Shown: in pieces, positions 1-25,000 of the stretch
How the letters are laid out: each line of letters begins with the position of its first letter
Position numbering within the stretch: the stretch's first letter is position 1
Source: Phoronis australis
Taxonomy: Eukaryota > Animalia > Phoronida
Assembly: GCA_002633005.1 (NCBI GenBank)
Contig: NMRA01000117.1
Span: 567,653-631,652 of the forward strand
Direction: 5' to 3'
DNA length: 64,000 nucleotides
The notes under the pieces: generated by a model
Told to the model about the DNA's origin: nothing
Databases searched by the model: none
The model's input: the letters and a program-made list of their open reading frames with translations, nothing else
Translations under genes and position numbers: made by a program

Positions 1-3000
1 CTGCCGATAGACCCCGCTGTATGCTCACCTGTGTTATATTTTCAAAGCAACGTTTCTGAAACCGACACAAATGGCCAATAATCGACACATTTTCTTTGAA
101 CTTAGAAAATTTTTCAAAGCAACGTTTCTGAAACCGACACAAATGGCCTATAATCGACACATTTCGTGTGACTTAAGAAATTTTTGAAAGCAACGTTTCT
201 GAAACCGACACAAATGACCAATAATCGACACATTTTCTCGGAACTTAGAAAATTTCGCACATTGATACGCAGGGGACATACCAGCAACCGCGCTCCGGCC
301 TCGGCACCGCAGACCCCGCAAGCTGCCGGACTTGAAACTCCCGTGGACCGCCGTCTGGGGAGTTTTCACAGATACTCGGTACACAACTAGGGACTGTATC
401 CCGGCCTGCCGATAGACCCCGCTTCATGCTTACCCCGTGGACCTCCGTCTGTGGAAACGTATCGGGCTCCAGCGGAGCGCGGCTGCTGGTCTGTCCCCTG
501 CTTAAATGTGCGAAATTTTCTAAGTTCCGAGAAAATGTGTCGATAATTGGCCATTTGTGTCGGTTTCAGAAACGTTGCTTTGAAAATATAACAAAGGTAA
601 GCATACAGCGAGGTCTGTTGGCAGGCCGGGATACAGTCCCTAGTCGTGTCCCGGGTATCTGTGAAAACTTCCCAGACGGCGGTCTACAGGGTTCAAGTCC
701 GGCAGCTTGCGGGGTCTGCGGTGCCGAGGCCGGAGCGCGGTTGCTGGTCTGTCCCCTGCGTAAATGTGCGAAATTTTCTAAGTTCCGAGAAAATGTGTCG
801 ATTATTGGCCACTTGTGTAGGTTTCAGAAACGTTGCTTTGAAAAATTTTATAAGTCCAATGAAATGTGTGGATTATTGGCCATTTGTGTCGCTTTCTCAA
901 AGGTGCTTTGAAAATATAACAAAGGTAAGCATACAGCGGGGTCTATCGGCAGTCCGGGATACAGCACCGTAGTCGTGTCCCGGGTATCTGTGAAAACTCC
1001 CCAGACGGCGGTCCACGGGGTCAAGTCCGGCAGCTTGCGGGGTCGGCGGTGCCGAGGCCGGAGTGCTGCAGGCCGGTCTGTCCCTGCGTTGGCGGTTGTG
1101 ATGCCGCGGATTAAGTGCCGGCATATATATTTTATGTGATCTCCCAGTATGGCATCTGAAGCGGTGCACACATAAGGCCTGATCGGCTGCCCTGCGCCCA
1201 CGTATCCATTACTCCTGGATTGGTGGAGGACACACTGGGAGAAGTTCGCGCCCGCTGTCCCGCTGCCGGAAAGTGACGATCCATTCGGTGATTGTAGTTT
1301 GAGGATCAGCAAGTTTTTGCGGGTTTTAGTTGTGAAAAACGAAATGTGTCGATTTCACCGTCAATAACCGACACATTTTAAAATGCGCATTTTCACATTA
1401 CTCTCAGTATAACGTGCATCGACCCCGCTATGCTTACCTTTGTTATATTTTCAAGACTACTTGAGAAACCGACACAAATGGCCAATAATCGACACATTTC
1501 TTGGGACTTGGAAATTTTTCAACACAACGTTTCTGAAACCGACACAAATGGCCAATAATCGACACATTTTTCGGAACTTAGAAAATTTCGCACCTATACA
1601 CAGGGGGGCAAACCTGCAGCCACTCTCCGGCCTCGGAAGCGCAGACCAGACCCCGCAAGCTGCCGGACTTGACCGCGTGGACCGCCGACTAGGGACTTTT
1701 CACAGATATTGCCGGGACACGACAAGGGGTTGTATACCGGCCATCGACCCCGATACGTTTGCTTTTTGATACATTTTCAAAACACCTTTGAGAAAGCGAC
1801 ACAATTATGGCCAATAATCGACACATTTCGTAGGACTTAAAATTATTTCAACACAACGTTTGAAACCGACACAAATGGCCAATAATCGACACATTTCTCG
1901 GGACTTGGGCCATTTTGTTTATCGCCGCGGCCTTAGGCCTACGCTTCGACATAATCCCGTAATTGTCACGGAGCGACTACAAACAGATTAGTTTTCTGGT
2001 ACATGCATTCCGCCAGTATGTCGCCGTGGGCCCGACAAATCTCCATTCATCCCACTCCGCACGCAGGGACCTTGTACTTTAATTGCTTCATTAGACCCCG
2101 ATGTCTTTGTGAATAAACGTTTGATGTTAGATTGAGTAAGAGGTCCCCAATGAGACTGCGCTACTGACTTCGGTGACGCTAAGCTATCGTGGCACAGCGT
2201 ACAGTAAGATATTAGATGAAAGGGGAAGGGTCGAGATACATGTCGTAATATTTTAACTTTGTTGTCTCCAATAGATTTAATTTTGAAATTCTGTGATTAG
2301 AAATCTGCACCCGTCACCGAAAGGTAAGTTTCCTGTGGTAAACTGTACGTCATGGGTCACACCTAAGATCATTGTCATTTGCGTCGATTAGTACGAGGGC
2401 CACCTTAGTTTTTTTTGGCGCTAAATGGGACTCAGAAACGTCACATTGAAAAATTTTCTAAGTCACTAGAAATGTGTCGATTATTAGGCATTTGTGTCGG
2501 TTTTGAAAATTTTGCTTTGAAAAATTTTCTAAGTCCTAAGAAATGTGTCGTTTACTGGCCATTTGTGTCGCTTTCTCAAAGGAGCCTTGAAAATATAACA
2601 AAAGTAAGCAAACATAGAGGGTCGAGCGGCGGGCTGGGATACAGTCCCTAGTCGTGTCCCGGCTATCTACAGAAAGTCTCCAGACGGCGGCTCACGCAGT
2701 CCAGTCGGAATGCGGGTCTGGATTGGGCGAGGACGGGGCGCTACAGTCCCCCTGAAGTTCTGTCTATGCGTATGTGCGAAATTTACTAAGTCCCGAAAAA
2801 TGTGTCGATTATGGGCCATTTGTGTCGCTTTCAGAAAAGTTGCTTTGAAAAATTTCCTAAGTCCCATGAAACGTGTCGATTATTGGCCATTTGTGTCGGT
2901 TTCAGAAACGTTGCTTTGAAAAGTTTCGTAAGTCCCACGAAATGTGTCAATTTTTGGCCATTTGTGTCGCTTTCTCAAAGGTGCTTTGAAAATATAACCA

Positions 3001-4647
3001 AGTTAAGCATACAGCGGGGTCTATCGGCAAGTCGGGAAGTCCCTAGTCCTGTCCCGTGTAACTATCTCAGCCGTGAAAACTCCCCAGACGGCGGTCCACG
3101 GGGTCAAGTCCGACAACTTGCGGAGTCTGCGGTGCCGCGAGGCCGGAGTGCTGCAGGCAGGTATGTCCCCTGCGTAAATGTGCAAAATTTTCTAAGATCC
3201 GAGAAAATGTGTCGATTATTGGCCATTTGTGTCGGTTTCAGAAACGATGTGTTTAAAAATTTTAAAGTCTTACGAAATGTGTCGATAATTAGCCATTTGT
3301 GTCGCTTTCTCAAAGGTGCTTTGAAAATATAACAAAGGTAAGCATACAGCGGGATCTATCGGCAGGCCGGGATACAGTCCCTAGTCGTGTCCCGAGTATC
3401 TCAGTATCAGTGAAAACTCCCCACACGGCGGTCCAGGGGTCAAGTCCGGCAGTTTGCGGAGTCTGCGGTGCCGAGGCCGGAGCGCTGGAGGCAGTTATGT
3501 CCCCTGCGTAAATGTGCAAAATTTTCTTCTAAGTTCCGACTAAAATGTGTCGATTATTGGCCATTTGTGTCGGTTTCAGAAACGTTGGGTTGAAATAATT
3601 TTAAGTTCCGCGAAAATGGGTCGATTATTGGCCATTTGTGTCGGTTTCAGAAACTTTGCTTGAAAAATTTCTTAAGTCCCACGAAATGTGTCGATTATAG
3701 GCCATTTGTGTCGGTTTTAGAAACGTTGCTTTGAAAAACTTTCTAAGTTCAAAGAAAATGTGTCGATTATTGGCCATTTGTGTCGCTTTCTCAAAGGTGC
3801 TTTGAAAATATAACACAGGTAAGCATAGAGCGGGGTCTATCGGCAGGCCGGGATACAGTCCTAGTCGTGTCCCGGTTACTCTGTGAAAACTCCCCAGCCG
3901 GCCGTATACGGGATTGCCAGGCCCGGAAGCTTGCGGTGTCTGCGGTGCCGAGGCCGGAGCGCTGCAAGCCCCCTGCGTAAATGACATAATGTGTGAAATT
4001 TTCAAAGTTCCGAGAAAATGTGTCGATTTTTGCCCATTTGTGTCGGTTTTAGAAACGTTGCGTCCGCGAAAATGTGTCGATTATTGGCCATTTGTGTCGG
4101 TTTCAGAAACGTTGCTTGAAAATCTTTCTAAGTTCAAAGAAAATGTGTCGATTATTGGCCATTTGTGTCGCTTTCTCCGAAGGTGCTTTGAAAATATAAC
4201 CAAGGTAAGCACACACAACGGGGTCTATCGGCAGGACGGGATGCAGTCCCTAATCCTGTCCCGGTTACCTCAGTGTGAAAACTCCCCAGACAGCGGTCCA
4301 CGGTGTCAAGTCCAGCAATTTGCGGGGTCTGCGGTGCCGAGGGCGGAGCGCTGGCAGGCCGGTCTGTCCCTGCGTTGGCGGTCGTGATGCCGCGGACTAA
4401 GTGCCGACCGGCATAAATATTTTATGTGGTCTCCCAGTATGGCATCTGGAGCGGTCCACATACTAAAAGGCCTGACCGGCTACCCTGCGGCCACGTATCC
4501 ATTAGGCCTACGGTTGGCGGAGGACTGTCCAACTGGAAGAAGTTCGCGCCCGCTGTCCCGCTGCCGGAAAGTGACGATCCAGTAGGTGATCATAGTTTAA
4601 TCAGCAAGTTTTTGCGGGTTTTAGTTGAGAAACGAAATGTGTCGTGC
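1..4647. repeat. Complex higher-order tandem array (satellite-like) with orientation switches
   Basis: Two modules alternate: a ~58-60 bp AT-rich one (aaatgtgtcgattattggccatttgtgtcggtttcagaaacgttgctttgaaaa...) and a ~170 bp GC-rich one (cagcggggtctatcggcaggccgggatacagtccctagtcgtgtccc...gccgaggccggagcg). Orientation is reversed in ~1-430 and ~1360-1910, forward in ~470-1350 and ~2430-4647. A ~270 bp closing block occurs at ~1085-1350 and ~4370-4647. ORFs here are repeat translations. Confidence 0.9.
1964..2203 (+). mobile_element. Possible solo LTR / LTR fragment inside the satellite
   Basis: Starts TGTCACG and ends ...CGTACA, with AATAAA at ~2112. Flanks gtaat (1959-1963) and gtaag (2204-2208) resemble a 5-bp TSD with one mismatch. 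Unrelated to the surrounding satellite modules. Confidence 0.35.
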
Positions 4648-5083
4648 CATATATCGTTTCATGGGTTTTTTTCGACAGATATTTTTCAAACGACGAGTTA
4701 AGTTGCAAAATTTGGGCTGCGAACAAAAAGTAGAGGGAATTTGCCGAGTTAGTTTACATCTTTAACGACTTTGATGACAGCCAGTAGCAGGTCAGGCCTA
4801 GAAAAATCGCGGATACTTTTCCAACGGGCATTTTCTCCCTTTTCACATGGCAAACTTAGCTACTGGAATGCACGTGTCAGTTAGAGAGCACTGATTCAAC
4901 TTTCACGTCGGCAATTTGCTCTGTGCTCTAGAGCCTTTCAATGGCGGTAGCGAAGAACAGTAATACCGTACCTGCATGAACGAATTCAATTTTGCGATTT
5001 GAAATTTGTGAGTATTTAACGCATATTACCTAAACATTTTCTCGATGATCTAAAATCAATTTTGGCGCGTAAAAATGGCGGGA

Positions 5084-5180
5084 AAATTTTGCGACCTGGC
5101 ATTTATGAATGCGAGCTGGATTTTGAAAATGCGACCTGGCATTTATGAATGCGAGCTGGATTTTGAAAATGCGACCTGGG
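5084..5180. repeat. Short tandem duplication (~40 bp unit)
   Basis: gcgacctggcatttatgaatgcgagctggattttgaaaat is repeated about 2.3 times. Confidence 0.8.
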
Positions 5181-5911
5181 ATTTTGGCTAGGTCGCAAAA
5201 TGCGATCTGGTGATTTTAATAGCGTCGGAGCCCTGGCTTCAAGCACGCGGCTGTTAAACATCACTGCAGAAACGAAATAGTTGCTGCGACCCAACATGCA
5301 TGACAAGGTTAAAAATCGTTCACAGTCCGCCATTCTTTCACCGTGTTGTAAGTAAAGCTAACCAATGACTGCCGAGGTTACATCGACCAATGCTAAAGCG
5401 CATGCCACTGCGTGATGCCTGCTGGCAGGGCTAAGCACGCAGGGAACCAGTGAGAGTCTCGCGCTAGCCTTTGCCTAATTCTCATGACTCAGTTGACATA
5501 CTTTGTGGTTATCGCGCGCGTGGTGAAAAAGTTAACGCCAAACGGTAAACAAAAAAGTGGAGTTGGAATTCTTCGCCAAAGTCATCTAAATTACCTCATC
5601 TTCATCTTCTTTTCTAGGTCGATCTTTGGCTCTTCCTGGCTGGCGCACAGAGTCGTCAAATGTAATCTGGTCAGCTAAAGATGTGCTACGACTTTCGTTC
5701 CGAACATGCGACTTCAATCGTTTAGATTTCCCCATATTTTGAACCTGACTTTTAAAACAATTCCATGTGGGATAAAGCGGAAATACTACTGCGCCACCAG
5801 TTGGCAAGATTTTTACTTCCGGTTCAACAGCAGAGACGTTCAAAGTCCATTGCTGAACGAGTTTTCAATCGTGCCAAGCACATGTTTCGTGGTTAGTCCA
5901 GCACTTTCATC

Positions 5912-8900
5912 ATGTCAGAAGTTGTAAAATTTCTTACTCTTATTGTTCAAGTATTTCTGTCCTACTTGGAATACTTTTACAGGCTGATCATTCCAAAAGC
6001 CGAGAAGAACATCAAAGGAAAAATCGTGCTTGTGACCGGCGGAGGACGTGGTCTAGGGCGGGAACTTTGCCTTGAGTTTTCAAAGCGTGGAGCTAAGATC
6101 GTTTCTTGGGATGTCTTAAAAGTAATTCTTCTTATTTCCAGTTATTGTGTTCAGAATACCAAACGTGATGTTATCTGAATATCGAGCTGTCATAACTTAA
6201 CGAGTGTTAGTGTTGTAGATGTGCTTCTGCCTGGTGAATCACATGAGCATCTGTTAGCTACTCGCGAACTGGCAATTGCCTATTAGCTGAATGGCAGGTT
6301 AGCACGCTCGCCAGTTTTATGGGGGTCGCTGGTTCGATTCCCGGGTCGGGTAATCTCGGCTATTACTACAAGTGGCATAGTCGGCAAACATGATATACCG
6401 ATGAAGCACTGCCAACTAGTATAGTCCGGATACCTATCGTCGTCAGGCTCCAAAGGTCGTCCGCCATCTTGTTTCGCGTGCAGCGCAACCACGCGGGACT
6501 TAGCGTTCCAATTTGGAGTGCTCGTCTGTACGTTAGGTACTAACCTCTCAGGAGAAACACGCATGGAAGAACTGAGACTAAAATTAATGCATTTACCGAC
6601 TGTTTTTTTGAGACCACTTAAAAACTTGTCAATTTTACTAATGCACTTTTTTGTTCATTTTCAGAAGATATTTTCGAAATTAAATTTTCTTCAGACGGAA
6701 CAAAAAGCAACTCAGGGATTGTCTATGCAATGTATCTATTTGTCCCAGGCACTAACCGACACCTGTTAGGCCAAAGGAAAAACGCAGCAGACAAATGGAA
6801 CACGCTGGGTGCTTAACAGTTTCGACCCACGCCTTGGTCATCAAAACATTGTCCACTTGTTTTTTTATTGCAAAACACAGTACTGAGCTCGACATTTATG
6901 TTGACATTTTTGATTAAAGCATTTTGAATTTATTTGAAGAAAATTAAAATACTTGAATTGATAGAGAATGGCCACCAATAAAGTAAAACATTGACTTTAT
7001 TTCACTATATTGCATTGTTACATACAACACAGCATGACATAATCAAAAATAAAAGAAGAGATTGAGCAATAAAATTCAAATGCGACTTGGGTATTTATTT
7101 ATTTATTTATGATTGCATAAGCCTGTTAAAGATGAGAAAAAATCAAACAATATGATTATGGGTAATTTATTAGAACAATTGTATTGAGGTTCAATGATCA
7201 ACTTGCGCCGACAAAGTCTCAAAGGGTTATAGAACTGTTCTGGCTGACAAGGTATTAACAGAGAATGAAGAGAAACTGAAAAGAAAAAGTAAGACAGCAA
7301 AGATAAGTGGTGTTAAGTACAACAAGAGCAAAAAGTCAAATAAAGAGGTCACAAACAGAAATAAGTAAGGTATTTCTTGAATAAAACAATCCAGGGCTCA
7401 GCCGTGATTTATTTTCCAGAACTGAAATTCTAAATCAATTTTAATCTATTTAAAAATCGATATCATACTAGTAAAGCAGTTTGTGGCTGAAGTAGAATTG
7501 CTGTATACCACTTTCCACTATTTTCTTGGCCTTTTTCTGTGTGGTTTGCTGTTCTTTCATATGACAACCATAGGTGTCGTTATAAAATGGCTGCCGAAAA
7601 GCAATGCACAGTTGAACAACTCGGCATAAGTAAAAGAAAACGTTTGAATCAACGAATACTATATATTTGTGAGAGTTAAATCAAATCCTATTCAGATCAT
7701 AACTTTGAAGTGGAATGATTGGGTGAGTACGACAACAAGCCGGTTTTATGCTTAGGCGGACGACCATTGGGTTCCCGAGTATACCCACGGACCTCGGGAC
7801 GGCGCGCATGGAATGTTACAGGAGTCAAGGACCTGTATGAGAGACTACCTTGTGTTCACCTGTGTTGTGGTGGTAAAGGTACCAAGGGACGTTGATGACC
7901 TGTATGAGAGACATCCTGGTGTTCACTTTCCTAGTGGTTTGGCTGTTCCGTAGGAAAGGGGAGTGTTATATAGTGTATTGTATTGTATATAGGGGGAATG
8001 TTTTAGAAGTGCTTCCGGTGAATCACATGAGCCTCTGTTAGCTACTCGCTAAGGGGCAATTGCCTATTTGCTGAATGGTTAGCACGCTTGCCGGTTTTAT
8101 GGGGGTCGCTAGTTCGATTCCCGGGTCGGGTAATCTTGGCTATTACTACATTAGTTACGAACTTCCGGCATTCCTGATTTGTTTACAGTTACAATTCAAT
8201 TAATTAACCTCTGAAAACAGGTGTGTATTATGAGGAACACTAAAACCTGTACGTCAAGTAGATCTTTTCCCTCACAGTTTGGTCTCGAGATGGGATAATC
8301 AAATACTCATGATCCTTACTAGCGTACTTGTTGTGGTGTTGTGTTTTGAAGAGAAAAACTTCACTAACACTTGGTAGAACAGGGCTGCGTTCCAGTGATG
8401 CAACATTCTTCCAAAAATGCAAGTCTTCATTAGATATTGGCATGCATTTTAAGAGAAGCTCGTATTCTTTCTAGCCTTTCCCGTGAGTATCTTGGATCTA
8501 CAAAGACCGCCAAGGTCTTTACTGTGACCATAATTGTTCACAACTCTACAATCATTAATATGTTGTTATGAATTTTTAGTTCCATGTAAGCAAAGTCCTA
8601 GGTGGTGTCACATTCTAATCCATCCTGTATGCTGGAAGATTTCTGCAAATTAAGCTTAACCCTGGTTGAACTATGAAAGTCACATTACTATGTGTATCTT
8701 TTTATTTTTAATTATATATGGACACCTTTTGAATCAGTTGATATCTTTAAATCATTCCAGCTCAAACAATACTCTCTTTTAGTTTTTAATTACCGGTATA
8801 TATGTTCACCTTTTGTAGCAGTTGATATCTTTAAATCCTTCCAGCTCGAACAATACTCTTGAAATAACATTTTTCTGAGTAATCCTTCATTTCATCTATG

Positions 8901-11900
8901 AAGTTGAAGACTAAACCACTTGACAGTTAAGTGTTGAAGGACATACAGAAATGTAAAGAGGGTTGTGGCGAGGTCACCTATCTGTTGGCCATTCCAAGAG
9001 GAAGCAGCGCAAACAATAAGTCCATGCCACACAAACTATATTGTGTCTGATACACAATAGAGGTCTTGCCAGATCTTGCTTTATTACCTATATTTTTGTA
9101 TGAATGTGGTACTTCATGCATAGTACTAAGTGCCTAATGTGCATAAGTGACACTTATGGTACATTTGATACAGGACCGATTCAGTTTACTGTCTAACTAC
9201 ACTGTATGCAGTATGCCATATGAGCCTACACCTCTATTATTGTATTTTTGAGACATTTAATCTTAATTTATTTTCTCTCCACTGCAGAAATATTTGGGGC
9301 TAGTATATTACAGTCATTGTAATTCCTACATTATTAAACATGATCCTTTGAAGATATATGGTCTTACTGCTAAAGCTCAACTTTCGGTTACCAAAAAGTA
9401 CCATGTGCATTTTCAGTTGTGATAGAACTTTTAGGTGTCTGTACACTTTGTACAAAAAGTGAATTTCTCCCCTAATTTGTCACTGAACTCTTGAAAACCT
9501 CCGGGGATGGTAAGATTGCCTGCTTTACTATCTGTTGAGACGTTTGTTCATTTAAGGATGGAAATGATGCTACAGCTGCTGAAATTACAAAACATGGAGG
9601 ATATGCACGCTCGTATCTGTGTGATGTGACCAAGGTGGACGATGTAAAACGTGTTGCAGAGAGAGTACGCACAGACGTAGGCGATGTGGACATTCTAGTG
9701 AACAATGCAGGCGTCCTATACAGTGCTGATATCTTGAGTGTTGACGAGGCTACAATACGACGCACATTTGAAGTGAACACGTTAGCTCATTTCTGGGTAA
9801 TGACAAACTATTTCTGTAAACCAAGCATATATGAAAGTGGATTTCCAAAATTTCAGCGTTTGGTATGCTAACTGCAAATACAAAATGTGTGTGTCTGAAG
9901 TGAAGTTTGTTCCCAAAGTTCATGTGAATTTTTATTCACAAAAAACCCTTAGAGCATTTCGGTGCACGTAGTGTCCAATGATTTTGAAGATAAGTGCCTA
10001 TCATTCCTGCACATTTTGAAGGATATTTACTGCGCATATTAACATGTTATTTATGGTTTTGCGTAATTGATCGTGTAAGCTAATGACTTGGCAGTTAATT
10101 TTCATGTGCACATATACAAAGTGTGCACATTGACCAGACATCTTATCTAGTTCACACAAAATGTCAACAGTTATTTGATTTGGAACCTCAGCCCCAGTCT
10201 CAGATTAACTTTGTACTGGTAGGTCACTCACCTCAAAACATCTTGTGCAAACAAACATGAAGAATTTCATACTTGAACATTTTCATGTTCCAATTTAATT
10301 TGATATTTTTGTAATTCAGACAATTAAAGAATTTCTTCCAAAGATGCTGGAGACTAACAGTGGACACGTAGTAACAATAGCCTCCATGGCAGGAAAGTAT
10401 GGCTCGGAATTCCTGACGGAATACAGGTAATGAAATTTTTGCTGTTTAATTTGCAATTAAAGTCAGTCCTATAGTTGTTTTAAAAAGGATACCAAACCCG
10501 GTTTTGGCCTATTAACAGATACTAAAAACGACTTTCCCATCCAGTCTCTGAAACAAAGTAATGCTCTGTTACCCTCGGCACTGTTCAGAAGTTTGGAGAA
10601 AAATTTGAAAACACCTTTCAAAGTCTGCTAAATGGTAATGTTGATTTGTGCTCTTAGCGAATTACCTGGCAATTGTTGGAAATGACTACTCACCAAGGAC
10701 CATAATGTCCACTCTGTAACATAGGGAGTATGAGTTTTTAGTTGATTCCTGCTTTTAACTAGGAAGATTGACGCCTGTGATGCATTAGCAGGTAATTGAA
10801 GGAGGCTTTAATATCCCTTTAATGTTAGTGTCTTGTAAATGTATATAGTCTTTTACTTGTTATGGTTTAGGATAAAGGTCCAGCACAGTGCTAACTAGCT
10901 GAAGCTGAATCCACAAACTTCAAAGTTGAATAAATCTATTTAGTGGTGGTGAAACGTTGAAGCAATCAAAAAACTCCATTCGGTCCTTGGTGCTTTTATG
11001 TGTAATCAAGAATGCTAACTCACTGTATCACAGAAACTAACAAAGGGTTCTATGCCAAAACATGAAATGAGACGAGGTTTTTTAAATATTGTTCTGCTCA
11101 GGGCTTTAAATGTGCATTTTAAAAAATCACCTTTTCAGTGCATCGAAATTTGCTGTAGTTGGTTTGACCCAGTCTCTTCAGAATGAGGTGGAACGTCTAG
11201 GAAAGGATAACATCAAGACAACAACTGTCTGCCCAACGTTTATAAACACAGACCTAATCAAAAACACCTCATACAGTGCTGGGTAGGTGGAGTTGCACAA
11301 TAGCGGATTTGCAGCGCAAACGAACTACGCATTGCGCATGTGTGAGTTACTTCCTGCGCGAAGGCTCATGGGATAGCTTGTGGTCAGGCATGTCTTGAGC
11401 AGGCTGGATAGTGTGTGCATTTGGAGTGATTTGCAAACTAAAAACCATGTTTCATTTTTTTGCTTTATAATACCAAGCAAGTCCTCTCTCTCGTTTGTGA
11501 ACACAGCGTAGCTATGATCAGTGACCGTGTGACCGAGGGCACAACTGTCGTCATGATGTTCAGTATTGGGGCTATCGGCGTTGATTTCGAAATCTCCTCC
11601 GGTTTCAGACAAGTTGAGAGTTCTTGGGTTGCTTAACTTTTGTAGCTTTCGCCGTGGATATGCTAGAGACGTTAATTTTAAGAGGAAACTCCGTGGGAAT
11701 GTTGTTCTCATACATCTTTTTTCCACCAGGAAAATGTTCGCTGCACACACGATGGCCCCTAGGCAATTACATCGCACTGGATGCCGCAGGCATTCAGGGG
11801 CGATAGTACATCCTCACAAAAAGTTACTCATTTCAAAATGCAGCAAATAAAATCAAATGAGCCATACATGTAGGAACACNNNNNNNNNNNNNNNNNNNNN

Positions 11901-13752
11901 NNNNNNNNNNNNNNNNNNNNNNNNNNNNNNNNNNNNNNNNNNNNNNNNNNNNNNNNNNNNNNNNNNNNNNNNNNNNNNNNNNNNNNNNNNNNNNNNNNNN
12001 NNNNNNNNNNNNNNNNNNNNNNNNNNNNNNNNNNNNNNNNNNNNNNNNNNNNNNNNNNNNNNNNNNNNNNNNNNNNNNNNNNNNNNNNNNNNNNNNNNNN
12101 NNNNNNNNNNNNNNNNNNNNNNNNNNNNNNNNNNNNNNNNNNNNNNNNNNNNNNNNNNNNNNNNNNNNNNNNNNNNNNNNNNNNNNNNNNNNNNNNNNNN
12201 NNNNNNNNNNNNNNNNNNNNNNNNNNNNNNNNNNNNNNNNNNNNNNNNNNNNNNNNNNNNNNNNNNNNNNNNNNNNNNNNNNNNNNNNNNNNNNNNNNNN
12301 NNNNNNNNNNNNNNNNNNNNNNNNNNNNNNNNNNNNNNNNNNNNNNNNNNNNNNNNNNNNNNNNNNNNNNNNNNNNNNNNNNNNNNNNNNNNNNNNNNNN
12401 NNNNNNNNNNNNNNNNNNNNNNNNNNNNNNNNNNNNNNNNNNNNNNNNNNNNNNNNNNNTCTTGTTGTTTTTGAAGCAGCCAGGAACACAAGTGTATCCG
12501 CCGTAAGTTTTCTTCGCGCTCATACCGCGTATTATGCTTGTTACTATGGCCGCTTTCGGAATCCTGACCACAGCACCCACAATGCACCATTTTAACCTAA
12601 TTTCAATATGGCGTCGCTGCAAATCCGCTATTGGTATTTACGGAGTTAGAAATTGTGTTGTTCTGACCGCCTTATCAGAATATTTGTATGTCTAAACGTG
12701 GTATGGTAAAACCTCACCTGGACACAATACACTAGAAATGTGATATTTATTTTCTCATTTTTTCATAAATGATAAATAGCACCAAGTACTACTTAATAAT
12801 TTTGAAGTTCTGTGCCAAAGTTACGGCAACATGTTTTGAAAAGAAGTGGGAATTCACTACAGTGTTGGAAAACTTTGAAAAATGAAAGAAAAGTTCAATT
12901 CCAAGAATTGATTTTTGCTGAATTTGGTGACATTTTGCCATTATTGCTTATGTTCGTATTCTCTAAACATGTGAAATATACTTATGCTGCCATAGTGGAA
13001 TGTACAGTACCACAAGGAACTAATCTAGGCAGATTTTACAATAAATATAATATATTAATTAAATTGTGGTAATATTACAATAATTTGCATTTTGCACGAG
13101 TGTTTTGTCAAAGGCGTAGTGTCAACAGTGACGATTTTTGAGTTGTTCAAACCATTTCAGGAAGTTTGGTGTTCTTGAGCCCGATGCCGTGGCCAAGACA
13201 GTTGTGAATGGTGTCCTCACAGATGTCACTACTGTATATATTCCCAAGAGCGTGGGAGTCGGTGTATTTCTTGGAAAGTGAGTGGAGAAACATGGTTAAT
13301 GCTCCAAGTTACTCTGTAGAGTGAGTGCACTGAGTTTGAAAACTCATACCCAAAAGATGTCTGAACAACTTTTTTGAAAACTTTTTTATTGTGTAGCGGA
13401 AAATGCGAAGTTCAAACATGTCCGTTGTAAGCGACATTTGACAAAACTTCAATTGGTTAGTTGTCGATTCAAACACAGCGTGGTATGGAAAATTTTATAT
13501 TTGAACCAGTAACAACAAACTGCTCAATAAGCACTTATCATACGAATCCAGAGAATATATTGGTAACAAACAGAAATTTTAAAAATATTGTTTTGATATG
13601 TAAAATATAATATGAAGTAATATGTTTGAACATGGGTCCTTAAATACATATAATGCCCTTATTTATTTAGTGTGCTGCCTGAAAAAGTGTCAAAGATTCT
13701 AGCCAAGGGTCCTGGTGCTCATTTCAACTTGACCTCAAAGAAAACTGAATAA
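5912..13752 (+). CDS. Short-chain dehydrogenase/reductase, SDR16C family (retinol dehydrogenase / 17beta-HSD11-like), 6 exons, 299 aa
   Basis: Exons 5912-6121, 9557-9796, 10320-10426, 11139-11282, 13161-13277, 13671-13752. All introns are GT-AG and phases agree (900 nt total). Motifs: N-terminal hydrophobic anchor, TGGGRGLG (TGxxxGxG), [24 protein letters not shown], catalytic YSASK, TTVCP. Confidence 0.93.
6211..8150 (+). mobile_element. Non-autonomous LTR retrotransposon (TRIM) with tRNA-like sequence in both LTRs (Helenus/TRIMp3-like)
   Basis: LTRs 6211-6370 and 7999-8150 are TG...CA direct repeats. 4-bp TSD ttag at 6207-6210 and 8151-8154. PBS tggcatagtcggca (6373-6386) resembles the tRNA-Ser PBS TGGCGTAGTCGGCA. 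PPT agggggaa at 7991-7998. A box tagctgaatgg (6284-6294) and B box ggttcgattcc (6331-6341). No gag/pol ORF. Confidence 0.88.
8707..8860. repeat. Tandem duplication (~85 bp x2)
   Basis: caccttttg..cagttgatatctttaaatc.ttccagctc.aacaatactct occurs twice. Confidence 0.75.
10484..10818. mobile_element. MITE-like element flanked by TTAA (Kolobok-like termini); related copy ends at ~29264
   Basis: Ends are ttaa|aaaggatacc and atatccct|ttaa. The internal block gagtatgagtttttagttgattcctg...ttgacgcc..tgatgcattagca is shared with 29146-29264. Confidence 0.5.
11302..12629 (-). mobile_element. TIR DNA transposon carrying a THAP-domain relic (ISL2EU-like, AT target duplication)
   Basis: Perfect 15-bp TIRs agcggatttgcagcg / cgctgcaaatccgct, flanked by AT (caAT...ATtg). 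The minus strand encodes THAP N-terminus [16 protein letters not shown] (~12523-12470), THAP C-terminus [21 protein letters not shown] (~11757-11690) and a DHSY motif (~11520). Spans the N gap. Confidence 0.75.
11880..12459. other. Assembly gap (run of N)
   Basis: About 580 N. ORFs running through it are artefacts. Confidence 1.
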
Positions 13753-16033: not shown

Positions 16034-19000
16034 TCACTTTCCAAGGCGAATATTGTCATCTAGCCATCTCCAAACTGTGCTTTCGTGTTTGTTCATCCAA
16101 GAAATGTTTCCACGAATGAGTTCTAATGCTTGGGCTCGTAGTCTCTGTGCTGGGCCGGAGACTGGATGCCTAGCAAAGAATTCCAGCACCTGCAAAAGTA
16201 ATGCATGTTTCGGCTTCCTGAGTTGTGATGTTTAAAACTGCAGTTTGCTCTGTTTAATCTTTTACTTTCATAAAACTGGTCTCGTAATTTTACCTTAGGA
16301 TTCTATTTCCGTTTCTAACAAGAACATTGAAACCACACAACAGAAACTTCAAGGTTTATTGGGGTTGGACAACCCTAAAGTCGCTATTTCGAAGTGGCTC
16401 AAAAATTGTAGGCATTGCCTGCGACTTGTGTTGGTAACGAAAATAGAATCCTGGAATATTATGAGATGATTTTACGAGATTTAATTCGGGTTGTTTTTAG
16501 GCAGCTGAATAGCAAAATGCATCTTTAAAGGTACATACGCCGACTTTTCCTAGATTAAAGAGCTGTTGATTTCTGAATCGGACTAATGCTAAGTTCAGAT
16601 ATTTTTTAGTCTACATATGGGTGCGCTTCAGGTCATTATTTTTGGCGTTTCTTCATTGCGCAGCGATAGGTAATGCCGTGTGCGTTATAGGGCAGACATT
16701 GAAGTTGTAGAGTTCCCGACGCTTAGTGTTTTACCTTGTAAATATCCGCGTCGTTATGATAGTTTATGCAGGTTCTGGTGTTAAAAACTTTTTTTTTTTC
16801 AAACACGTTTGCTCAGCTGAAGCAACTATGCTATGTTTGAATTGAAATTTTGGTTAATGGTAAATTGCCTGGAGTTACCTCAAGGCGACTGAAAATATCG
16901 GTCTGACAAGCAACTTCATGGGCCTCGTCTAAAGTAAATAACAACCTCCCAGTTCTTCTCAAGCCTAGAAATCGTACCTAATCCGAATAAGGAACAAGAG
17001 GAGGCTTATTTCATAATAGTATAAGCGAGACCTGGTTCTTTAGTCCGAAAAGCGAATTGAGCCTTTTACTCTCATAAAATCGGTCTCGTAATATTCCTGA
17101 CCAGGGTAGAATCCTATTCATGTTAACAACAAGAACCTGAGAACCATCAGCGACTCGTGAAAATGTGTCACAGACTGTCTGACCGGGTTGGACAAACTTA
17201 AATTAAAAATGGCGCCGGCATAGGTGGGTATATGTACAGGCTGCCAATGACTTGATTTGGTATTTGAAATAGAATCCTATCACGGTGTGCAATATAATTA
17301 CATCGTGTAAGGTCTATTTCAATTTTCAGCTAAACATATATTAGCTGGTACACGTTGAACCAGACGTGCGCCGGCAGCTCGGGTGGGCCCCTTTCACTGA
17401 TCACCAGCTAATCAGATCGAAATGCAGTTTTAACACAGGATGTCACTGAGACATGCGTCACAGGCAACACATACAAAGAATAATACTGACAGTGCGAATT
17501 CCCTCATAGTCTCAGCAACACTGCATCTTGCTTCACTTTTCATTACAGTCGATGTTTGAAATGCCTACCTCTTGCAGCTGAGTATCTGTGTTGAATAGTC
17601 GAAGAATATAAGATAGTACCCGACCCAGGTATCTGTAGTGGGAACCAATACTGGAAAAAGATGATTATTAATTAATTTATTTATTTTTGATGGGACAAGC
17701 GATGCAAAGCTAAATTGCGTCTCATGGTTTAACTAAAAGTGAAACTTTTCTAAGAGATTCAACAAGTTCAAACTTAAAATAAAAGCAACGGGAACTCACA
17801 TGGCCTCAATAGCCTGATAATTATCCTTCAGCCATGTCCAGAGAACCTCCCGACCAATAGGGTTCTCACTTACGAAGGATATGGCGTACAGGAAGTCTTG
17901 ACGGTAGATCTTTGTATTGTCCATGGTCCAGCTTAGTAACCTAAATAAACACCTTATAATCTAAGCATTTGTCTTTTCCACAAGCCAACCACCGCAAAGG
18001 ATTTTCTTTTATGAAAAAGTCCCAGAACGAAACGTGTTGTATACTTTTATCTTGATCATTATTATAAAAGACTCTCCTCATTAACAGTCTTCTATCGTTT
18101 ACATTAGGCAGTGTGTTATTGTTGTACGTTCATGCTTACCATTATTATAAAGGAAGCATTTCAATAACTGTCTTCTGTCGTTCACATTAGCCATTGTGTT
18201 TTTGTTGTACGTTCATGCTTATTATTATAAAGGACTCGCCTCATTAACAGTCTTCTGTCGTTCACATTAGCCAGTCCATAGAGAAGTTTCATTTTCTCTT
18301 GAATAACACTTTCATTTCTGTATCGCCGATACATGAACTGAAACTCATCTTCGCTACCCAGATATTGCATTCCATACTGGTAAGTCATTAATCGCATGTC
18401 TGGATGCACGCTAAACAATAATTACACAATAAATGACGTAGAAAATATATCTGAAACTAAATAAGGCGATCCAGATCCTCCCAAGGATACTATTGTTTCA
18501 TGAAATGAAGAATATAAATCGGTAAATAAATCAACAAGAATGGGTCAACTGAAATTTGAAATTTTCGGATGTAATAACTTCCTTTGTCAACAGAAATAAA
18601 GTAAAATCAAACACAAAATGACAATAGACTTTTAGGTGGATTCCAATTGCTTTTTTCTTGAAAGAATTAATTTCTAAAGGGGAGTTCTGGTTTTCATCTT
18701 TGGAAGAATTGGCAAAATATGCTGCCAATCTAAGACGTCTAGCGAAAGTGTAAATATCAATTAGTAATTCATCTTTGTCAATATTGGTTTTGGTGGGACA
18801 GAAGTTTAGTCCTTTAGAAAGTAGGCTAACCTAATCATTTTGTGTTTGATTTTACTTTATTTCTGTTTTTGTTGACAAAGGAAGTTATTACATCCGAAAA
18901 TTTCAAATTTCAGTCGATCCATTCTTGTTGTTTTATTTACCGATTTACAATAAATGAAAAATTCAGATCACTTGTTTAATTCACTCATACAGCTTTTGTA

Positions 19001-22000
19001 TATGTCCACGGCACATGTTCTTGTAAGAACTAGAGTTACTTTAAAACATAATGTACAAACACAAGCTGATAGATTTACACGTACTGTTCTTTCCTTAAGA
19101 CTGTCGACAGAATTAAATCACGCTGTGTATACGTTTATCTACATGTATGACCGCGGAACTAGTTTAAATGAGTTTTAATGCACACTAATAAAATAATCTT
19201 CATGGAATGAAATTCAACTTCATCATCGTAGAAAATTCCAAACGTGTCACAGAACTTGTCTAGTGCGTTGGAGGTCGCCTGCGATTCATCTGTTTTGTCA
19301 CAGGTGTACTATACTTACGTTGACCCATTCATCCATTCTCGTAGCTTGTCTCCGGCCATTTGTAAGCAACCTAAGTCACCATGGCTACAGGCAGTGTGAA
19401 TAAGCAAAGTTCGCAAAAACCTAAAACAATCACGATTATCTGTATTTATCTATATTTATGACGATTTCGCTGAATGAAAATTTCGGTAGCTTCACTCAGC
19501 TCGTACAAAGCTACATTGCTTCAGCAGTTAGCAAAAAGAGAGGCCTACGTTCCTTTCACTGCGTAAGCCTAGTGTTTAGCACATGCGGTATGTGTACGCA
19601 TTGTGGCCCATGCACCTGTATGTGCAGGTGTGCTGTTATTTGAATTGAGGTTTAATCATCATGTACGAAACATGTACAAACCATTTCGCCACAGTTTATC
19701 TGTCGCCGAAGTTTTAGCTGAGGCGCTTAGGGGTTTAAAAATGTTACCACGCTCACCCGATCATAAGATGCTGCTGAATGGACCGGCAACTCAAATCGCA
19801 GGCCATGTGCCATTTTCAAAATCGCAATTTTAGGGTTTGTCAGATACCATTTTCTTGAGTCGCTGATGGGTTGCGATGTTCTTTTTAGTAAGGAAATTAA
19901 AATCATGACACGGTAAGAAATACCACGAGACCTATTATATGAGAGGAAAAGTACTAATTCTGTTTTCGGTTTCAGTCAGCTAAACAGGGCGAAATGTAGT
20001 GTTTACTAAGTAAAATTAAAAATCAAGTCTTGAAACGGTGCGATATTGGCGTATTTTCAATATTGAAATCTAGTAAAAATTGTTAAAAGATCTACAAAAA
20101 TCCAGTTTAAGATGTGGTCGTATATGACAAGAAACATTAATGTGCGAAATAAAAATATTTTTTGAGACTGTATTATTTTGAATAACGACGCAAGAGTCTT
20201 AACTTCGCTTTTGTAAAATGCATGTAAGATATATCTGAAGGGAATGAATACTTCTCCAAGTTGTCCCCGTGCTCGTTATTCCACGTGAGGTTTCGTAAGA
20301 CTGGACCACACAATCCAACTATAAACGTCTGAAATACAAAATACGTCAAAGTAAATAGGAAAATAGATTTAAATGTGTTGCTTACAATGGTTGCAATTTA
20401 CGAATGAAAATACGTTAAAATCTCCCCAGTGTTGGGCAAACGCAAACATTGTGTGTGTGCTTTTTAATTTGCTGTGGCCAGTTGAGAGGCTATGTGTTAT
20501 AATATATACATTAGCATAGCGCTTTTGCATTGTTATGTTATCATTTTCTTATGTCGAAAATAAAACACAGCAGCTACGCATTGAATTAGCCGTGTTACAG
20601 CTTTTGTTATATAATATAATTTCATAACTAAAAGCAATTAAACTATACCAAAACAATCTAGAAAACATTGGTAATTGCAAAAATGCGTTTACATTCCATT
20701 TATCGACTAACGGTCTTCCCCGCAGCATTTCCCTGATCTGAGTGATTCCCATGGTTGCGCTCTCCCACGGTAGGTAGTGGTACTCTTTACGTAGGTAGCT
20801 TGCCAAACTGAGGGTAGCGTAGTAGTCCAAGCGGCCACTTCGCGCCAGAGCAAAGGCATCGTTCAATAGACCAGCTCTATCAGACGGCCAAAGCGACTGA
20901 AAATAAGAAAATGATTTTTAAACAGTAAAAACTGTTGCTCGTATCTATACTGTAGTGATGGATATCGCATTTAATTTTCTCTATCTCCACTTTATGGTCA
21001 GAACAGATTAAAATCCCGAAGTCGTGAGGCATTCCTGAAATCTGATTTCCTCATCTTCCGCATGACATCTTCGCTTACATTTTCGCATTTCAATGCTGAT
21101 GTTGCACTGGGCACCGAATAATACAAATTCTCAGATTGATGAGGTTGGAAGCTTTCATCACCATATCCAAAGGGACTTCAGGGTTAGCGATTTAGGAGAA
21201 ATTATTCCCCTTCTTGTTGATTCTGTAGTAAGACATTTTACAGTTGGTCTTGTAAAACATTAGACTGAGTAAAAATATGGATGTTGCGCAAAGCTACTGC
21301 ATATAATAAGTTACTTTTGTTAACTCATTGTGTATTTTGAGTTGAGACCTTCTTAAAGCTATTAGTATAGTGTGCTAATTACATTTTAAAGTTAACAGAG
21401 TCACCTAACTAAACGTTATCATCAACACTTGACAAAACAAGAAACGAAAATAACATGCAATAAAAATAATAAAGAGTCATGAAAATATGCAAATAAAAAT
21501 GGTTAAAAAATAAAACGTACATGTAACCGAAGATATACATAAAAAATGGATTTGCTAGAAACCGATGAATACCTTAGTAATTGAAACAGATTTAAAAATC
21601 TCAATATACTATTTATAATAAGAGATGTTAAGTGGAGTATACATCTATGCACCATTTATTTTTATTTTCTCCAGTCACTGAACGTCGATGGACGTCGCAC
21701 TGCAATCAGTTCTATTGAAAAGCACCAGTACATTTAGATTACGAACGATCTCCAGCCTCACACCAGTTTCTGCCCAAGGGCATTTGTCACATAAAGTATT
21801 ATCAGGGTAATGGAACTAACAAGGTCACCTTCATAAACAAAGTGGTCGTCATCACAAAAAGCAATGCATGTCATTTCGTTGCGACAGTCACTAAACCACG
21901 ATATGATAGAACAAGTGAGAAATTCACTCACATCGATATCACGATTAAGGATATCGGCGAACTTCATCCACTCCGATGTAGGATAATTGACCCGGTAATA

Positions 22001-25000
22001 ACCCGTCACGTTCACGTTAAACTTGATCCAACCCGAATTGGTGCTGACGTTCATCGGGGAAACAAAGGTGACTGAAAAAATATAGCTATTATCATGGTTA
22101 TGACTCTTCATAAATGGAGGGGATAATGTTTCCTTTAACCCGTTCTGTATAATTTATTATTCCAACCAGATACTGACCTAATGGAAAAGATGCATATTCC
22201 GGGTAGGCATATTTTGACCGACCTAATGGAAAAAATGCATATTCCGGGTAGGCATATTTTGACCGACCTAATGGAAAACATGCATGTTCCGGGTAGGCAT
22301 ATTTTGATACAATTGATTGCTCACGAAGACGGAACTCACGTTAGGAAATACTGCCAACGAATTCTTAAAATATCTTTGAGGTGGTGATGTAGTATAATTG
22401 TTTCTAATTTCTACTGGTCTATTTACACCTATCTCAGGTAGCACATTTAAGTTGGCAACTGAGACCTATCGGTAGGTCATTTCTCTGGCCGCCAGTAATT
22501 GTCTAGTGATTAGCCAGAGTGATGTATTAACAACTAGAAGACACCAGGTTCAAACCCTGTCGTACACCAGACAGAGCAAAGAGCCCAAGTGCCCACCACG
22601 AGTGTACCCATTCTTTGTCCTCTAAGAACACTGTAACATCTGAAGATGACCGGAGAAATGGCCGAACGAAACGTCGTGCCAATGTAAATAGGCTGGAGGT
22701 GGGTGTAAAGCAATTTTAATGTCATAGACAACATACTGGCTGGAATGCAATAATAACACTTCACTTACTGTCGCCCATCTCCATCCATTTTGTCACCTGA
22801 GTTTTGTCGTGTGACGTCACATAATGCAAGGGAACAAACCACTTATACCTGTGGAAATGAGGTTAGACCAGTGATCACGGTTATAGATGTTTGGTAGAAC
22901 TGTTGTAGACTTTGAAAATCACATTTCAGTTTGCAATATAACACTTTTTACATGTCCACCTCACTACACGTTGTGTCCTACTTCAGCTTTCAAAAGGAAT
23001 CAAAACATATTATTTACCTATTGTTAATGCAACGCCAAGTAATTCATTGGTAATATTTTTGTTACGTTGCAAACAAATGATTACCAAATCGACATTTTCA
23101 AAAGCTCGGATAACCTAAGTGCAAACAATGGATACTTTTTCAATTCTTGCATGATATCTACATTGTACAAATTTAACTAGTCAAAGATTAAATTTTTATT
23201 AACGTTAATTTCAAAGTAAAATTTCACTTGTTAGCCATATCTTGTGCTCGACAGATGATAATTTATCGTGTAAAATTGAATGGTCTATCAATGAAAGCAC
23301 TCTACCCTGACGCAACTTAATTTTGTAATGGATCATATTTTAATGAATTATATTCTTAATTATATTATAACTTATACATGTTTGGTTTGTGGTTTAATGA
23401 TATTAATATTCTGTATCTTAAAGCGGCTATAAACCCACCTTACATAAGAAAACCTCTATGCAGACCATTTACAGTTACAAAATTGGAATGAACTTTTTCC
23501 TTAGTCAAAAAGTACGTGATTTCAGGGGTTAGAAAGAACTGACAGACCATTAGACTACGGCAAGGCTGCACAAGCTGGCTTGTCACGGCCTGCACTAACC
23601 ATTAGACTATGGCAAGGCTGCACCAGTTGGCTTGTCACGGCCTCCACTAACCATTAGCCTATGGCAAGGCTGCACAAGCTGGCTTGTCACGGCGTGCACT
23701 AACCATTAGACTATGGCAAGGCTGCATCAGTTGACTTGTCATGGCCTGCAGTTATTTTATGCTCCACGCATGCTAGTAGGCCTAGTTATACATGGCCCTA
23801 AGAGGTATTATTTCGAGGATCCCTGTGAGGTCCCACGAAGACGCCCAAAAAGTGGTCACGCCTCCCAGAAGGTCACTGAGTTAAAGGTCAATGAGGAGTC
23901 GTCGCCATTTTGCATGTGAGGACGTGTCGTCATTAAATTGTTTTACGTCATGATCTAAAAATAGATGGACGGAAAAAAAGTGTCACTTGAACAGTATCTG
24001 GTGATGCTTATGAGTATGGTTTGATTCCACACAAACAATAGTGGTTTTCTATATTTAATATATATTTATTAAACAAACAAGACGATCAATACAGATTTAC
24101 ACTCAGAACAAATCGACGGCAGTAGGCCCTACTACGCTGAGAGGTCACAGCAACCTAATTGGCAAAAAAGCTAAGCCGCATACAAACACAGGTTGGCCAG
24201 CCACGAGGTGGCATACAGGAGAACGTACATGTGCCAAAAATGTGGAAAGAGCTATACGAGGTATTGCACACATGTAATGTTCTGATACATGTCATGAGTT
24301 TTAATACACGTTTTATCAAGACCAGAATGTGAAGAATAGTCATTACATTAAGAAGTCGAAGTTCTCAAAGCGTTTAGTTTTTCAAGTTCATCAGTGTTAA
24401 AACGTTACTGTTCTTCTTCATGCAGTGTTGATGATTGCTGTTTTCGTTTTTTTAGGAGCGACCATAACACAAACGGGCCCACGTGGGCTTGAAAATGCTA
24501 AGTAAGTTATATGCGACCTCTGTAGGAGGAGTTTTTCAAGTTTGCAACAGATCAAAATGCATTGCCAAGGTTACGCGTTTTGTTATTGCCGTTTATTTTC
24601 AACTCATTTCTCACCTCATTAAGTAAAATGTGCGATAGGAGCTAGATTTGAAATCAGACAGAACACTAAACTCGCTCAAAATAGACGTTCGATTACAGCC
24701 GCATGTTCCCACGTAGCTGCACCTGACCTCGTGCGGTAACACCAGCAGAGCGATTAGATTGTTGGAACACGATCAAACCATCCACCACCCGACAGGGTCA
24801 CGTGGTGTTACGGCGGATATCAAGAGGACTTCAAACGTACGTATGGAACATGTGAATCTTAGCGAGGGATAGTCGGATCCAGAAGATTTCGTCCCACGAC
24901 TTTGATGGTTGAATTAGACAGTAGTGTGACTAAATTGTTTACATAAAAGAGACACTATCGGAACGTGACGGTGATTTTGCAGGCACAAAACTTGTTTTTA

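What the first reader, a model, noticed from the sequence alone, without database searches (positions are those of the whole stretch)
6211..8150. Complete miniature LTR retroelement whose LTRs contain a tRNA-like Pol III promoter
Seen: two ~155-160 bp TG...CA LTRs, 4-bp TSD ttag, a tRNA-Ser-like PBS 2 nt after the 5' LTR, a PPT abutting the 3' LTR, and no coding capacity. Each LTR holds the palindrome GGCAATTGCC directly followed by a tRNA-like unit. The A box (TAGCTGAATGG) and B box (GGTTCGATTCC) are consensus in the 5' LTR and one base off in the 3' LTR. Established: TRIMs with small-RNA-derived Pol III promoters exist (plant Cassandra with 5S; Helenus with tRNA-like LTRs and 4-bp TSDs in animals) but are thinly sampled. 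Inference: a possibly undescribed family of this SINE/LTR hybrid type, mobilised by a Gypsy-type partner primed by tRNA-Ser. A TTTT run between the A and B boxes could terminate Pol III early and needs explaining.
Basis: partly seen in the sequence, partly recalled or inferred. Interest (0 to 1): 0.75.

Follow-up and report, generated by a model that had tools for sequence, protein, structure and literature searches.

The report
tRNA-bearing mini-retrotransposon with nested transposon
This is a small, gene-less jumping element whose two end repeats each carry a decayed tRNA-type promoter, likely a new family of the "Helenus" kind described in 2024; this copy is padded to 1.9 kb by a second, unrelated jumping element and is likely dead.

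Summary
In detail: TG...CA LTRs (160 and 152 bp), 4-bp TSD, PBS, PPT, A and B boxes. The real TRIM is 578 bp here and about 540 bp in a sister copy. It lies in intron 1 of an expressed SDR gene of a lophotrochozoan, likely a mollusc or close relative. It meets the published Helenus definition (Kojima 2024) and is a new family: its tRNA-Ser-type PBS is in no listed family. The T4 run is kept in sister copies and is likely a leaky terminator, read through in the 5' LTR and used in the 3' LTR. By eye, the arm-arm-palindrome module before box A recurs with different letters in 33 of 51 published bivalve LTRs and in nemertean and fish LTRs; the paper does not mention it. Pol III transcription, the helper and TSDs of other copies are untested. 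This scan has already noted Helenus-type elements in at least 15 other genomes.

The parts
5912..6121 (+). Host SDR (HSD17B13-like) gene, exon 1; GT donor at 6122
   Evidence: Pfam adh_short; tblastn; sense RNA depth 7-37, next intron bins 0
6207..6210 (+). Left target-site duplication TTAG
6211..6370 (+). 5' LTR, TG...CA, with two 4-nt insertions relative to the 3' LTR
   Evidence: the 4 nt at 6293 are absent from 111 of 204 X8 reads
6253..6280 (+). Arm 1 (6253-6258), arm 2 (6264-6269, mutated in this copy) and palindrome (6271-6280)
   Evidence: 6266 reads T in 143 of 144 and 54 of 55 X8 reads, which restores arm 2 in sister copies
6284..6294 (+). Box A, 5' LTR
6315..6318 (+). T4 run between boxes A and B; predicted leaky Pol III terminator
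   Evidence: kept in the loose-end lines of 40 X8 reads, 35 X9 reads and 19 X3 contigs
6331..6341 (+). Box B, 5' LTR
6373..6386 (+). Primer-binding site, tRNA-Ser type (13 of 14 here; 14 of 14 in most sister reads)
   Evidence: 6377 reads G in 42 of 45 and 13 of 14 X8 reads
6371..6421 (+). TRIM internal region, 5' part (51 bp, ends in the left TA duplication)
   Evidence: 42 X8 reads leave at 6421 and continue as window 7784 onward
6422..7781 (.). Nested 1,360-bp non-coding element with imperfect inverted ends (17 of 23), flanked by TA at 6420-6421 and 7782-7783; likely a non-autonomous DNA transposon, superfamily not assigned
   Evidence: joint 6419-7782 in 5 X1 contigs; 56+92 X8 and 31+75 X9 reads enter at 6419/6420 from mixed flanks; 0 of 20,000 random pairs reach 17 of 23; 16-nt subterminal inverted repeat 6450-6465/7755-7770
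7782..7998 (+). TRIM internal region, 3' part, with a 67-bp-spaced tandem duplication (7830-7871, 7897-7938)
7952..7998 (+). Polypurine tract, split in this copy: 12 purines at 7952-7963 and 8 at 7991-7998
   Evidence: joint 7958-7992 in 3 X1 contigs; 38 X9 reads run into the LTR start from a purine-rich line (agreement 0.45)
7999..8150 (+). 3' LTR, TG...CA: arm 1 8037-8042, arm 2 8048-8052, palindrome 8055-8064, box A 8068-8078, T4 8095-8098, box B 8111-8121
   Evidence: the off-consensus letters at 8069 and 8111 are private: sister contigs read A (113 contigs) and G (92 contigs) in X1
8151..8154 (+). Right target-site duplication TTAG
9557..9796 (+). Host SDR gene, exon 2 (end approximate); places the element in intron 1
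   Evidence: an X5 contig runs from exon 1 into this exon; AG acceptor; Pfam adh_short E 1e-14

Best explanation
A 578-bp non-coding LTR element with tRNA-type promoter boxes in both LTRs sits in intron 1 of an SDR gene and is interrupted by a separate 1,360-bp TA-flanked element; it is likely an old, dead copy of a new Helenus-type family that would be transcribed by RNA polymerase III and copied by the proteins of a Gypsy-type helper. Shown: the two LTRs, TSD, PBS, PPT, boxes A and B at tRNA spacing, the multi-copy family, the empty site of the nested element. Inferred: Pol III would start near the palindrome just upstream of box A in the 5' LTR, read through the T4 there about half of the time, and stop at the same T4 in the 3' LTR, giving a roughly 400-nt RNA with a terminal repeat of about 40-50 nt. 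A host tRNA-Ser would prime at the PBS, the PPT would prime the second strand, and the helper integrase would leave the 4-bp TSD. The nested element brings 14 sense-strand T runs of 4-7 nt and so likely blocks any unit-length Pol III transcript from this copy.
For: Anatomy. Family: 2,772 X1 contigs lay on 3,001 bases, with summed depth 46 on the unique flank and 8,661-165,424 on the element (not a copy number). Fixed LTR ends with mixed flanks: 74 X8 reads, 62 X9 reads and 48 X3 contigs leave at 6370 (agreement 0.35-0.45), 38 X9 reads enter at 6211. Uninterrupted form: 42 X8 reads join 6421 to 7784 (agreement 0.87); one 416-nt X5 contig holds LTR-PBS-internal-LTR with 199 letters where the window's TRIM-only parts give 233. 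Boxes A and B are intact in most sister contigs while this copy's 3' LTR has drifted. The only T runs of 4 or more in TRIM-only sequence are 6315, 8001 and 8095. T4 gives 52% termination by human Pol III in vitro, 73% with an adjacent hairpin (PMC13385618, passages). Helenus definition, 4-bp TSD in animals and Gypsy-like PBSs: PMC10886601. Sense RNA depth rises across the LTR after box A (X8 52 to 128; X9 53 to 96) while antisense depth stays at 110-154.
Against: No Pol III transcript is shown. Over most of the LTR antisense RNA exceeds sense RNA and flanks are mixed, as expected for passive co-transcription inside other genes; about 36 of the extra sense-side reads in X8 share one flank, so one locus may explain much of the rise; the sense excess over the PBS is seen in X8 (46 against 14) but not in X9 (27 against 29). 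No helper element was found or searched for in this genome (no genome held). TSDs of other copies could not be read. The 52% figure is human and in vitro. The T4 at 8001, at the start of this copy's 3' LTR, would cut readthrough further (the 5' LTR has G there). Pol III activity is also unvalidated for published Helenus.
Confidence: 0.75

Rival explanations
1. Same element, but transcribed by Pol II or only passively inside host transcripts; the tRNA-like boxes are a relic of an old SINE insertion into the LTR and the T4 has no role.
For: LTR RNA is mostly antisense with mixed flanks; no cloverleaf; folds are no better than shuffles (z -1.43 to +0.94).
Against: Boxes A and B and their 43-nt spacing are kept in most sister sequences while nearby U3 letters vary with many indels; box B variation at 6339 stays within the box consensus. 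These RNA libraries may exclude short non-polyadenylated RNA (selection not on record).
Confidence: 0.17
2. The whole 1,940 bp is one mobile unit (a larger non-autonomous LTR element) and the middle part is its own internal region.
For: The window holds it as one stretch between two LTRs with a clean TSD. A composite copy could in principle have moved after the insertion.
Against: Empty-site joints and reads; the middle part enters from mixed flanks in 148 X8 and 106 X9 reads; inverted ends and TA duplication; GC 36% against 45-51% in the TRIM parts.
Confidence: 0.04
3. Two independent tRNA-derived SINE copies happen to flank unrelated DNA.
For: Each repeat has boxes A and B and SINE-like length.
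Against: TG...CA ends, PBS after the first, PPT before the second, one TSD around the pair; fixed ends and no tails in sister reads.
Confidence: 0.02

Closest known systems
Helenus (TRIMp3), animal families, Kojima 2024, PMC10886601; by eye closest in layout to bivalve and nemertean families such as Helenus-1_CGi, Helenus-6_SaGl, Helenus-2_MoPh and Helenus-1_LiLo
   Same: Short TG...CA LTRs with boxes A and B, PBS, PPT, no coding capacity, 4-bp TSD, 578 bp without the insert (published range 311-1,263; Helenus-2_MoPh is 156 + 268 = 580 bp); arm-arm-palindrome layout before box A.
   Different: PBS letters are in no family of Fig. S2 and not found in the supplement (the two listed Ser PBSs differ); palindrome letters not found (a FASTA line break could hide a match); the T run lies between the boxes with none after box B; host not placed among the listed species; this copy carries a nested element.
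Cassandra (5S-derived TRIMp3 of plants)
   Same: Pol III promoter in both LTRs; transcript reported to start in the 5' LTR and end in the 3' LTR with a short terminal repeat (as summarised in PMC10886601; the 2008 paper was not held); readthrough of LTRs in tandem arrays (PMC7215508, passages).
   Different: 5S type-1 promoter, plants, experimentally shown; here a tRNA type-2 promoter and untested.
biv-TRIM of bivalves (PMC6934838, passages)
   Same: Small TRIM in molluscs.
   Different: No canonical PBS; hairpins and palindromes reported in the inner domain, not in the LTR.
TA-targeting non-autonomous DNA transposons (Tc1/mariner-type MITEs; recalled, no call)
   Same: For the nested element: TA duplication, inverted ends, no ORF, many insertion sites.
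   Different: Inverted ends are imperfect (17 of 23) and no transposase link was found; superfamily not assigned.

Membership tests
Helenus (TRIMp3) | Two short LTRs with TG...CA ends | tested here: met
Helenus (TRIMp3) | tRNA-derived sequence in the LTR with box A (TRGCY, YGG) and box B (GGTTC) | tested here: met
   spacing 43 nt in the 3' LTR, 47 in the 5' LTR; paper's criteria. Not a recognisable tRNA, as for most Helenus.
Helenus (TRIMp3) | PBS complementary to a tRNA 3' end just after the 5' LTR | tested here: met
   compared with human tRNA-Ser letters, not with the host's own tRNA
Helenus (TRIMp3) | PPT before the 3' LTR | tested here: met
   split in this copy
Helenus (TRIMp3) | TRIM size (under about 1 kb) and no protein | tested here: met
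   578 bp once the nested element is set aside; about 540 bp from the X5 contig; no Pfam cut-off reached in 16 frames. Not met by the 1,940-bp copy as it stands.
Helenus (animal) | 4-bp TSD | tested here: inconclusive
   Met at this one insertion; other copies could not be read with both flanks (no genome).
Helenus (animal) | PBS shared with an autonomous Gypsy element | not testable with these tools
   No host genome; paper searches for this PBS in retrotransposons found none.
TRIMp3 | Transcription by RNA polymerase III from the LTR | tested here: inconclusive
   RNA-seq shows a sense rise after box A but more antisense than sense RNA overall.
tRNA-derived SINE (SINE2) | Head-body-tail with variable 3' tail and variable TSD, no PBS/PPT | tested here: not met
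   Fixed CA end, PBS and PPT in sister reads.
Functional tRNA gene | Cloverleaf with anticodon arm | tested here: not met
Tc1/mariner-type MITE (nested element) | TA TSD and terminal inverted repeats | tested here: met
Tc1/mariner-type MITE (nested element) | Ends shared with a DD(E/D) transposase-coding partner | not testable with these tools
   No host genome; no transposase remnant in the frames scanned.

The most novel reading that the evidence does not exclude
The arm-arm-palindrome module in front of box A marks one ancient lineage of animal Helenus shared by molluscs, ribbon worms, coelacanth and ray-finned fishes, against the published view of separate births in each group, and it is an RNA fold switch: because the upstream (U3) part is transcribed only at the 3' LTR, two identical LTRs fold differently, so Pol III reads through the first T4 and stops at the second. 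This would be a general solution to how a Pol III-driven LTR element defines its R region.
Probability: 0.2. Interest if true: 0.65.

Novelty: new member of a known kind. Interest (0 to 1): 0.36.

Why it matters
As a record it is modest: one more Helenus family, with a primer not yet listed, in a lophotrochozoan, and a clean case of a TRIM killed by a nested transposon. The more useful point is mechanistic. No Helenus has been shown to be transcribed by Pol III, and none has a mapped R region. This family has a single T4 per LTR downstream of box A, so it predicts exact RNA ends, and the shared module before box A gives a testable handle on both the origin of animal Helenus and on how identical LTRs act first as promoter and then as terminator.

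Tried and rejected
No whole genome is held, so copies could not be collected with both flanks. No second copy in the window. Exact-pattern scans for LTR motifs: 0 matches in viral contigs, 0 and then 3 in metagenome contigs, 1 in prokaryote genomes; all 4 loci match only over 19-20 nt and were dropped as chance. ARAGORN and Rfam found no tRNA, ribozyme or other RNA family (4 Rfam matches, all far below gathering score). My first version of the switch (arm 1 pairing with arm 2 in the 3' copy) is not supported on the window's copies: pair probability 0.00-0.19; arm 1 pairs with the 3' side of the D-arm region instead. No fold beat its shuffles (7 folds, z -1.43 to +0.94). No RNA holder was listed by the index; RNA evidence comes from same-species raw reads. 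Aminopeptidase exon searches placed the host poorly (3 of 10 clusters looked up carried a species name, all molluscs, at 42-44% identity). Kalendar 2008 was not held. Look-ups of earlier scan notes by sequence found nothing for the TRIM or the nested element, and none held the words for the hairpin module. Supplement parts 2-4, 8 and 9 of PMC10886601 (most fungal and most wasp sequences, Fig. S1) were not read and may bear on how far the module extends; they were covered only by the motif search.

Full report
OBSERVATION. The repeats are real. The 5' LTR is 6211-6370 and the 3' LTR 7999-8150, both TG...CA, differing by 12 substitutions in 152 columns and two 4-nt indels. TTAG flanks the pair (6207-6210, 8151-8154). 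A PBS starts at 6373 and matches 13 of 14 letters of the complement of a human tRNA-Ser 3' end, as printed in one passage of PMC3299991. Box A is at 6284/8068, box B at 6331/8111, T4 at 6315/8095. ARAGORN finds no tRNA and Rfam none up to E 10, so the unit is a promoter relic, not a tRNA. None of 16 frames scanned in the element reaches a Pfam cut-off.

The span is two elements. Five contigs of run X1 join 6419 to 7782, skipping 1,362 bases with TA at both ends. In RNA run X8, 42 reads leave the window at 6421 and continue with the letters of 7784 onward (agreement 0.87), while 56+92 X8 reads and 31+75 X9 reads enter at 6419/6420 from unrelated flanks (agreement 0.37-0.43). The ends of 6422-7781 match as inverted repeats at 17 of 23 letters, which 0 of 20,000 random pairs reached, with a further 16-nt inverted repeat just inside. 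It is 36% GC against 45-51% for the rest and holds 14 T runs of 4-7 nt. I read it as a non-autonomous DNA transposon that duplicated TA (inference; superfamily not assigned). Without it the TRIM is 160 + 266 + 152 = 578 bp. One 416-nt contig of run X5 holds LTR, PBS, internal region and LTR again, with 199 letters where the window has 233; the difference fits a 33-nt stretch that splits this copy's PPT and that 3 X1 contigs lack. A typical unit is thus about 540 bp.

FAMILY. 2,772 X1 contigs lay on 3,001 bases, with summed depth 46 on the unique flank and thousands to 165,424 on the element (the tool warns that this is no copy number). Sister sequences end at fixed points: 74 X8 reads, 62 X9 reads and 48 X3 contigs leave at 6370 into mixed flanks, and 38 X9 reads enter at 6211. 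They repair this copy's private changes: 8069 reads A and 8111 reads G in nearly all X1 depth, 6377 reads G in 55 of 59 X8 reads, 6266 reads T in 197 of 199, and the 4 nt at 6293 are absent from 111 of 204. No variant of the T4 is among the 40 of 51 rows shown, and the loose-end lines keep it. Contigs from runs labelled as two other organisms align to the LTR (X7: 7999-8150, 12 differences, no gap; X6: 8010-8146, 11 differences, with a PBS-like loose end) and to the nested element; relatives or contamination cannot be told apart.

HOST. The element lies in intron 1 of an SDR gene: exon 1 ends at 6121, exon 2 starts at 9557, an X5 contig joins them, exon 1 has sense reads and the unique intron bins have none. 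The best named hits of exon 2 are scallop, abalone and mussel HSD17B13-like proteins at 58-62%. In a tree of 30 rows (29 of the 60 hits plus the host) the host joins that molluscan clade (100/99) on a long branch, with no annelid, brachiopod or phoronid orthologue sampled. So: a lophotrochozoan, likely a mollusc or close relative. Two earlier unchecked notes on this genome say the same.

COMPARISON. I read parts 1-5 of 6 of Kojima 2024 (PMC10886601), passages of the legends and supplement parts 1, 5, 6, 7, 10 and 11 of 11. The element meets the stated Helenus features. Its PBS is not among those of Fig. S2 and the motif search of the whole supplement found none of four motifs, so it is an unlisted family. 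Repbase and Dfam could not be searched. The scan has 51 earlier notes with Helenus words in at least 15 genomes.

A SHARED MODULE. Before box A this LTR has arm 1, a 5-nt loop, a complementary arm 2, a 10-nt palindrome, then box A, whose first letters are again complementary to arm 2. By eye, without any computation, the same layout with different letters is in 33 of 51 bivalve LTRs, 3 of 3 nemertean, 2 of 2 coelacanth, 13 of 14 ostariophysan (one lacks the arms) and, in a looser form, 2 of 2 sturgeon/paddlefish LTRs; it is absent from 3 of 3 Lingula and 1 of 1 ctenophore LTRs and from the other 18 bivalve LTRs. The words palindrome and hairpin do not occur in the paper's main text; a search of 2024-onward papers listed no other Helenus paper among the 15 shown of 312, and the one later paper citing it does so in passing (passages). 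The paper proposes separate origins in bivalves and fishes; a shared module argues for one lineage or horizontal spread, but a by-eye count cannot exclude convergence.

MECHANISM. Shown: structure, family, nested insertion. Inferred: Pol III starts near the palindrome, about 7-20 nt before box A (position recalled from tRNA genes and SINEs, no call). Human Pol III terminates at T4 in 52% of events in vitro and 73% with an adjacent hairpin (PMC13385618, passages), so a single T4 per LTR would give readthrough at the first and a stop at the second in roughly a quarter of starts, with a terminal repeat of about 40-50 nt. Cassandra is reported to work with such a short repeat. Folding the window's copies shows that context changes the fold: with U3 present a stem closes directly before the T4 in both LTRs (6231-6235 with 6310-6314; 8015-8019 with 8090-8094, one pair being T-A in one copy and C-G in the other), while RNA started at the palindrome folds weakly. 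Against this: no fold beats its shuffles, the U3 side of that stem lies beside an indel-rich stretch, one two-sided change in two sequences is slight, and the arm 1-arm 2 pairing I first expected is not predicted. RNA-seq is inconclusive: sense depth doubles after box A, but antisense RNA is higher over most of the LTR and one locus supplies about 36 reads. Priming by tRNA-Ser and a Gypsy-type helper follow from the PBS, the 4-bp TSD and the published pattern for animal Helenus; no helper was seen.

VERDICT. Interest 0.36; the fold-switch and single-origin reading has probability about 0.2 and would deserve about 0.65.

Noticed in passing
window 6422-7781: The nested TA-flanked element is itself a high-copy family with imperfect inverted ends and a repeated subterminal motif; present in contigs of two other organism labels; no earlier scan note matched it.
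   Followed up: partly
another locus, seen at window 6368: 36 X8 and 34 X9 RNA reads run from the LTR end into one and the same foreign flank (agreement 0.95, 0.85), with a linked variant mostly on the sense side: one LTR copy may start or lie in an expressed transcript.
   Followed up: no
window 1-4650: GC-rich patchwork of 72-bp-period repeats in both orientations, 75-95% alike, followed by a 20-bp tandem array at 5087-5189 inside a 15-nt inverted repeat; looks like nested copies of another repeat family.
   Followed up: no
window 11325-12700, minus strand: Fragments with C-x4-C and H-F motifs resembling a THAP zinc finger (recalled motif; the one frame scanned had no Pfam match) around a 580-N gap, inside a later intron of the SDR gene; possibly a DNA transposon remnant.
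   Followed up: partly
window 16061-33714, minus strand: Multi-exon M1 aminopeptidase (aminopeptidase A-like) gene converging on the SDR gene; one exon near 18035-18409 appears partly duplicated.
   Followed up: partly
window 60417-60926, minus strand: ORF with a C-x2-C...YIGET motif resembling a GIY-YIG endonuclease of Penelope-like elements (recalled motif, not scanned).
   Followed up: no
window 41306-42656: Inverted repeats of 130-240 bp and a 209-bp palindrome at 41457-41665, MITE-like.
   Followed up: no
window 5700-6326: Contigs of X1 and X2 spanning the unique flank lack 4 letters relative to the window, while the X3 contig over 5880-6326 matches it exactly: a small allelic or assembly difference, place not resolved.
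   Followed up: no
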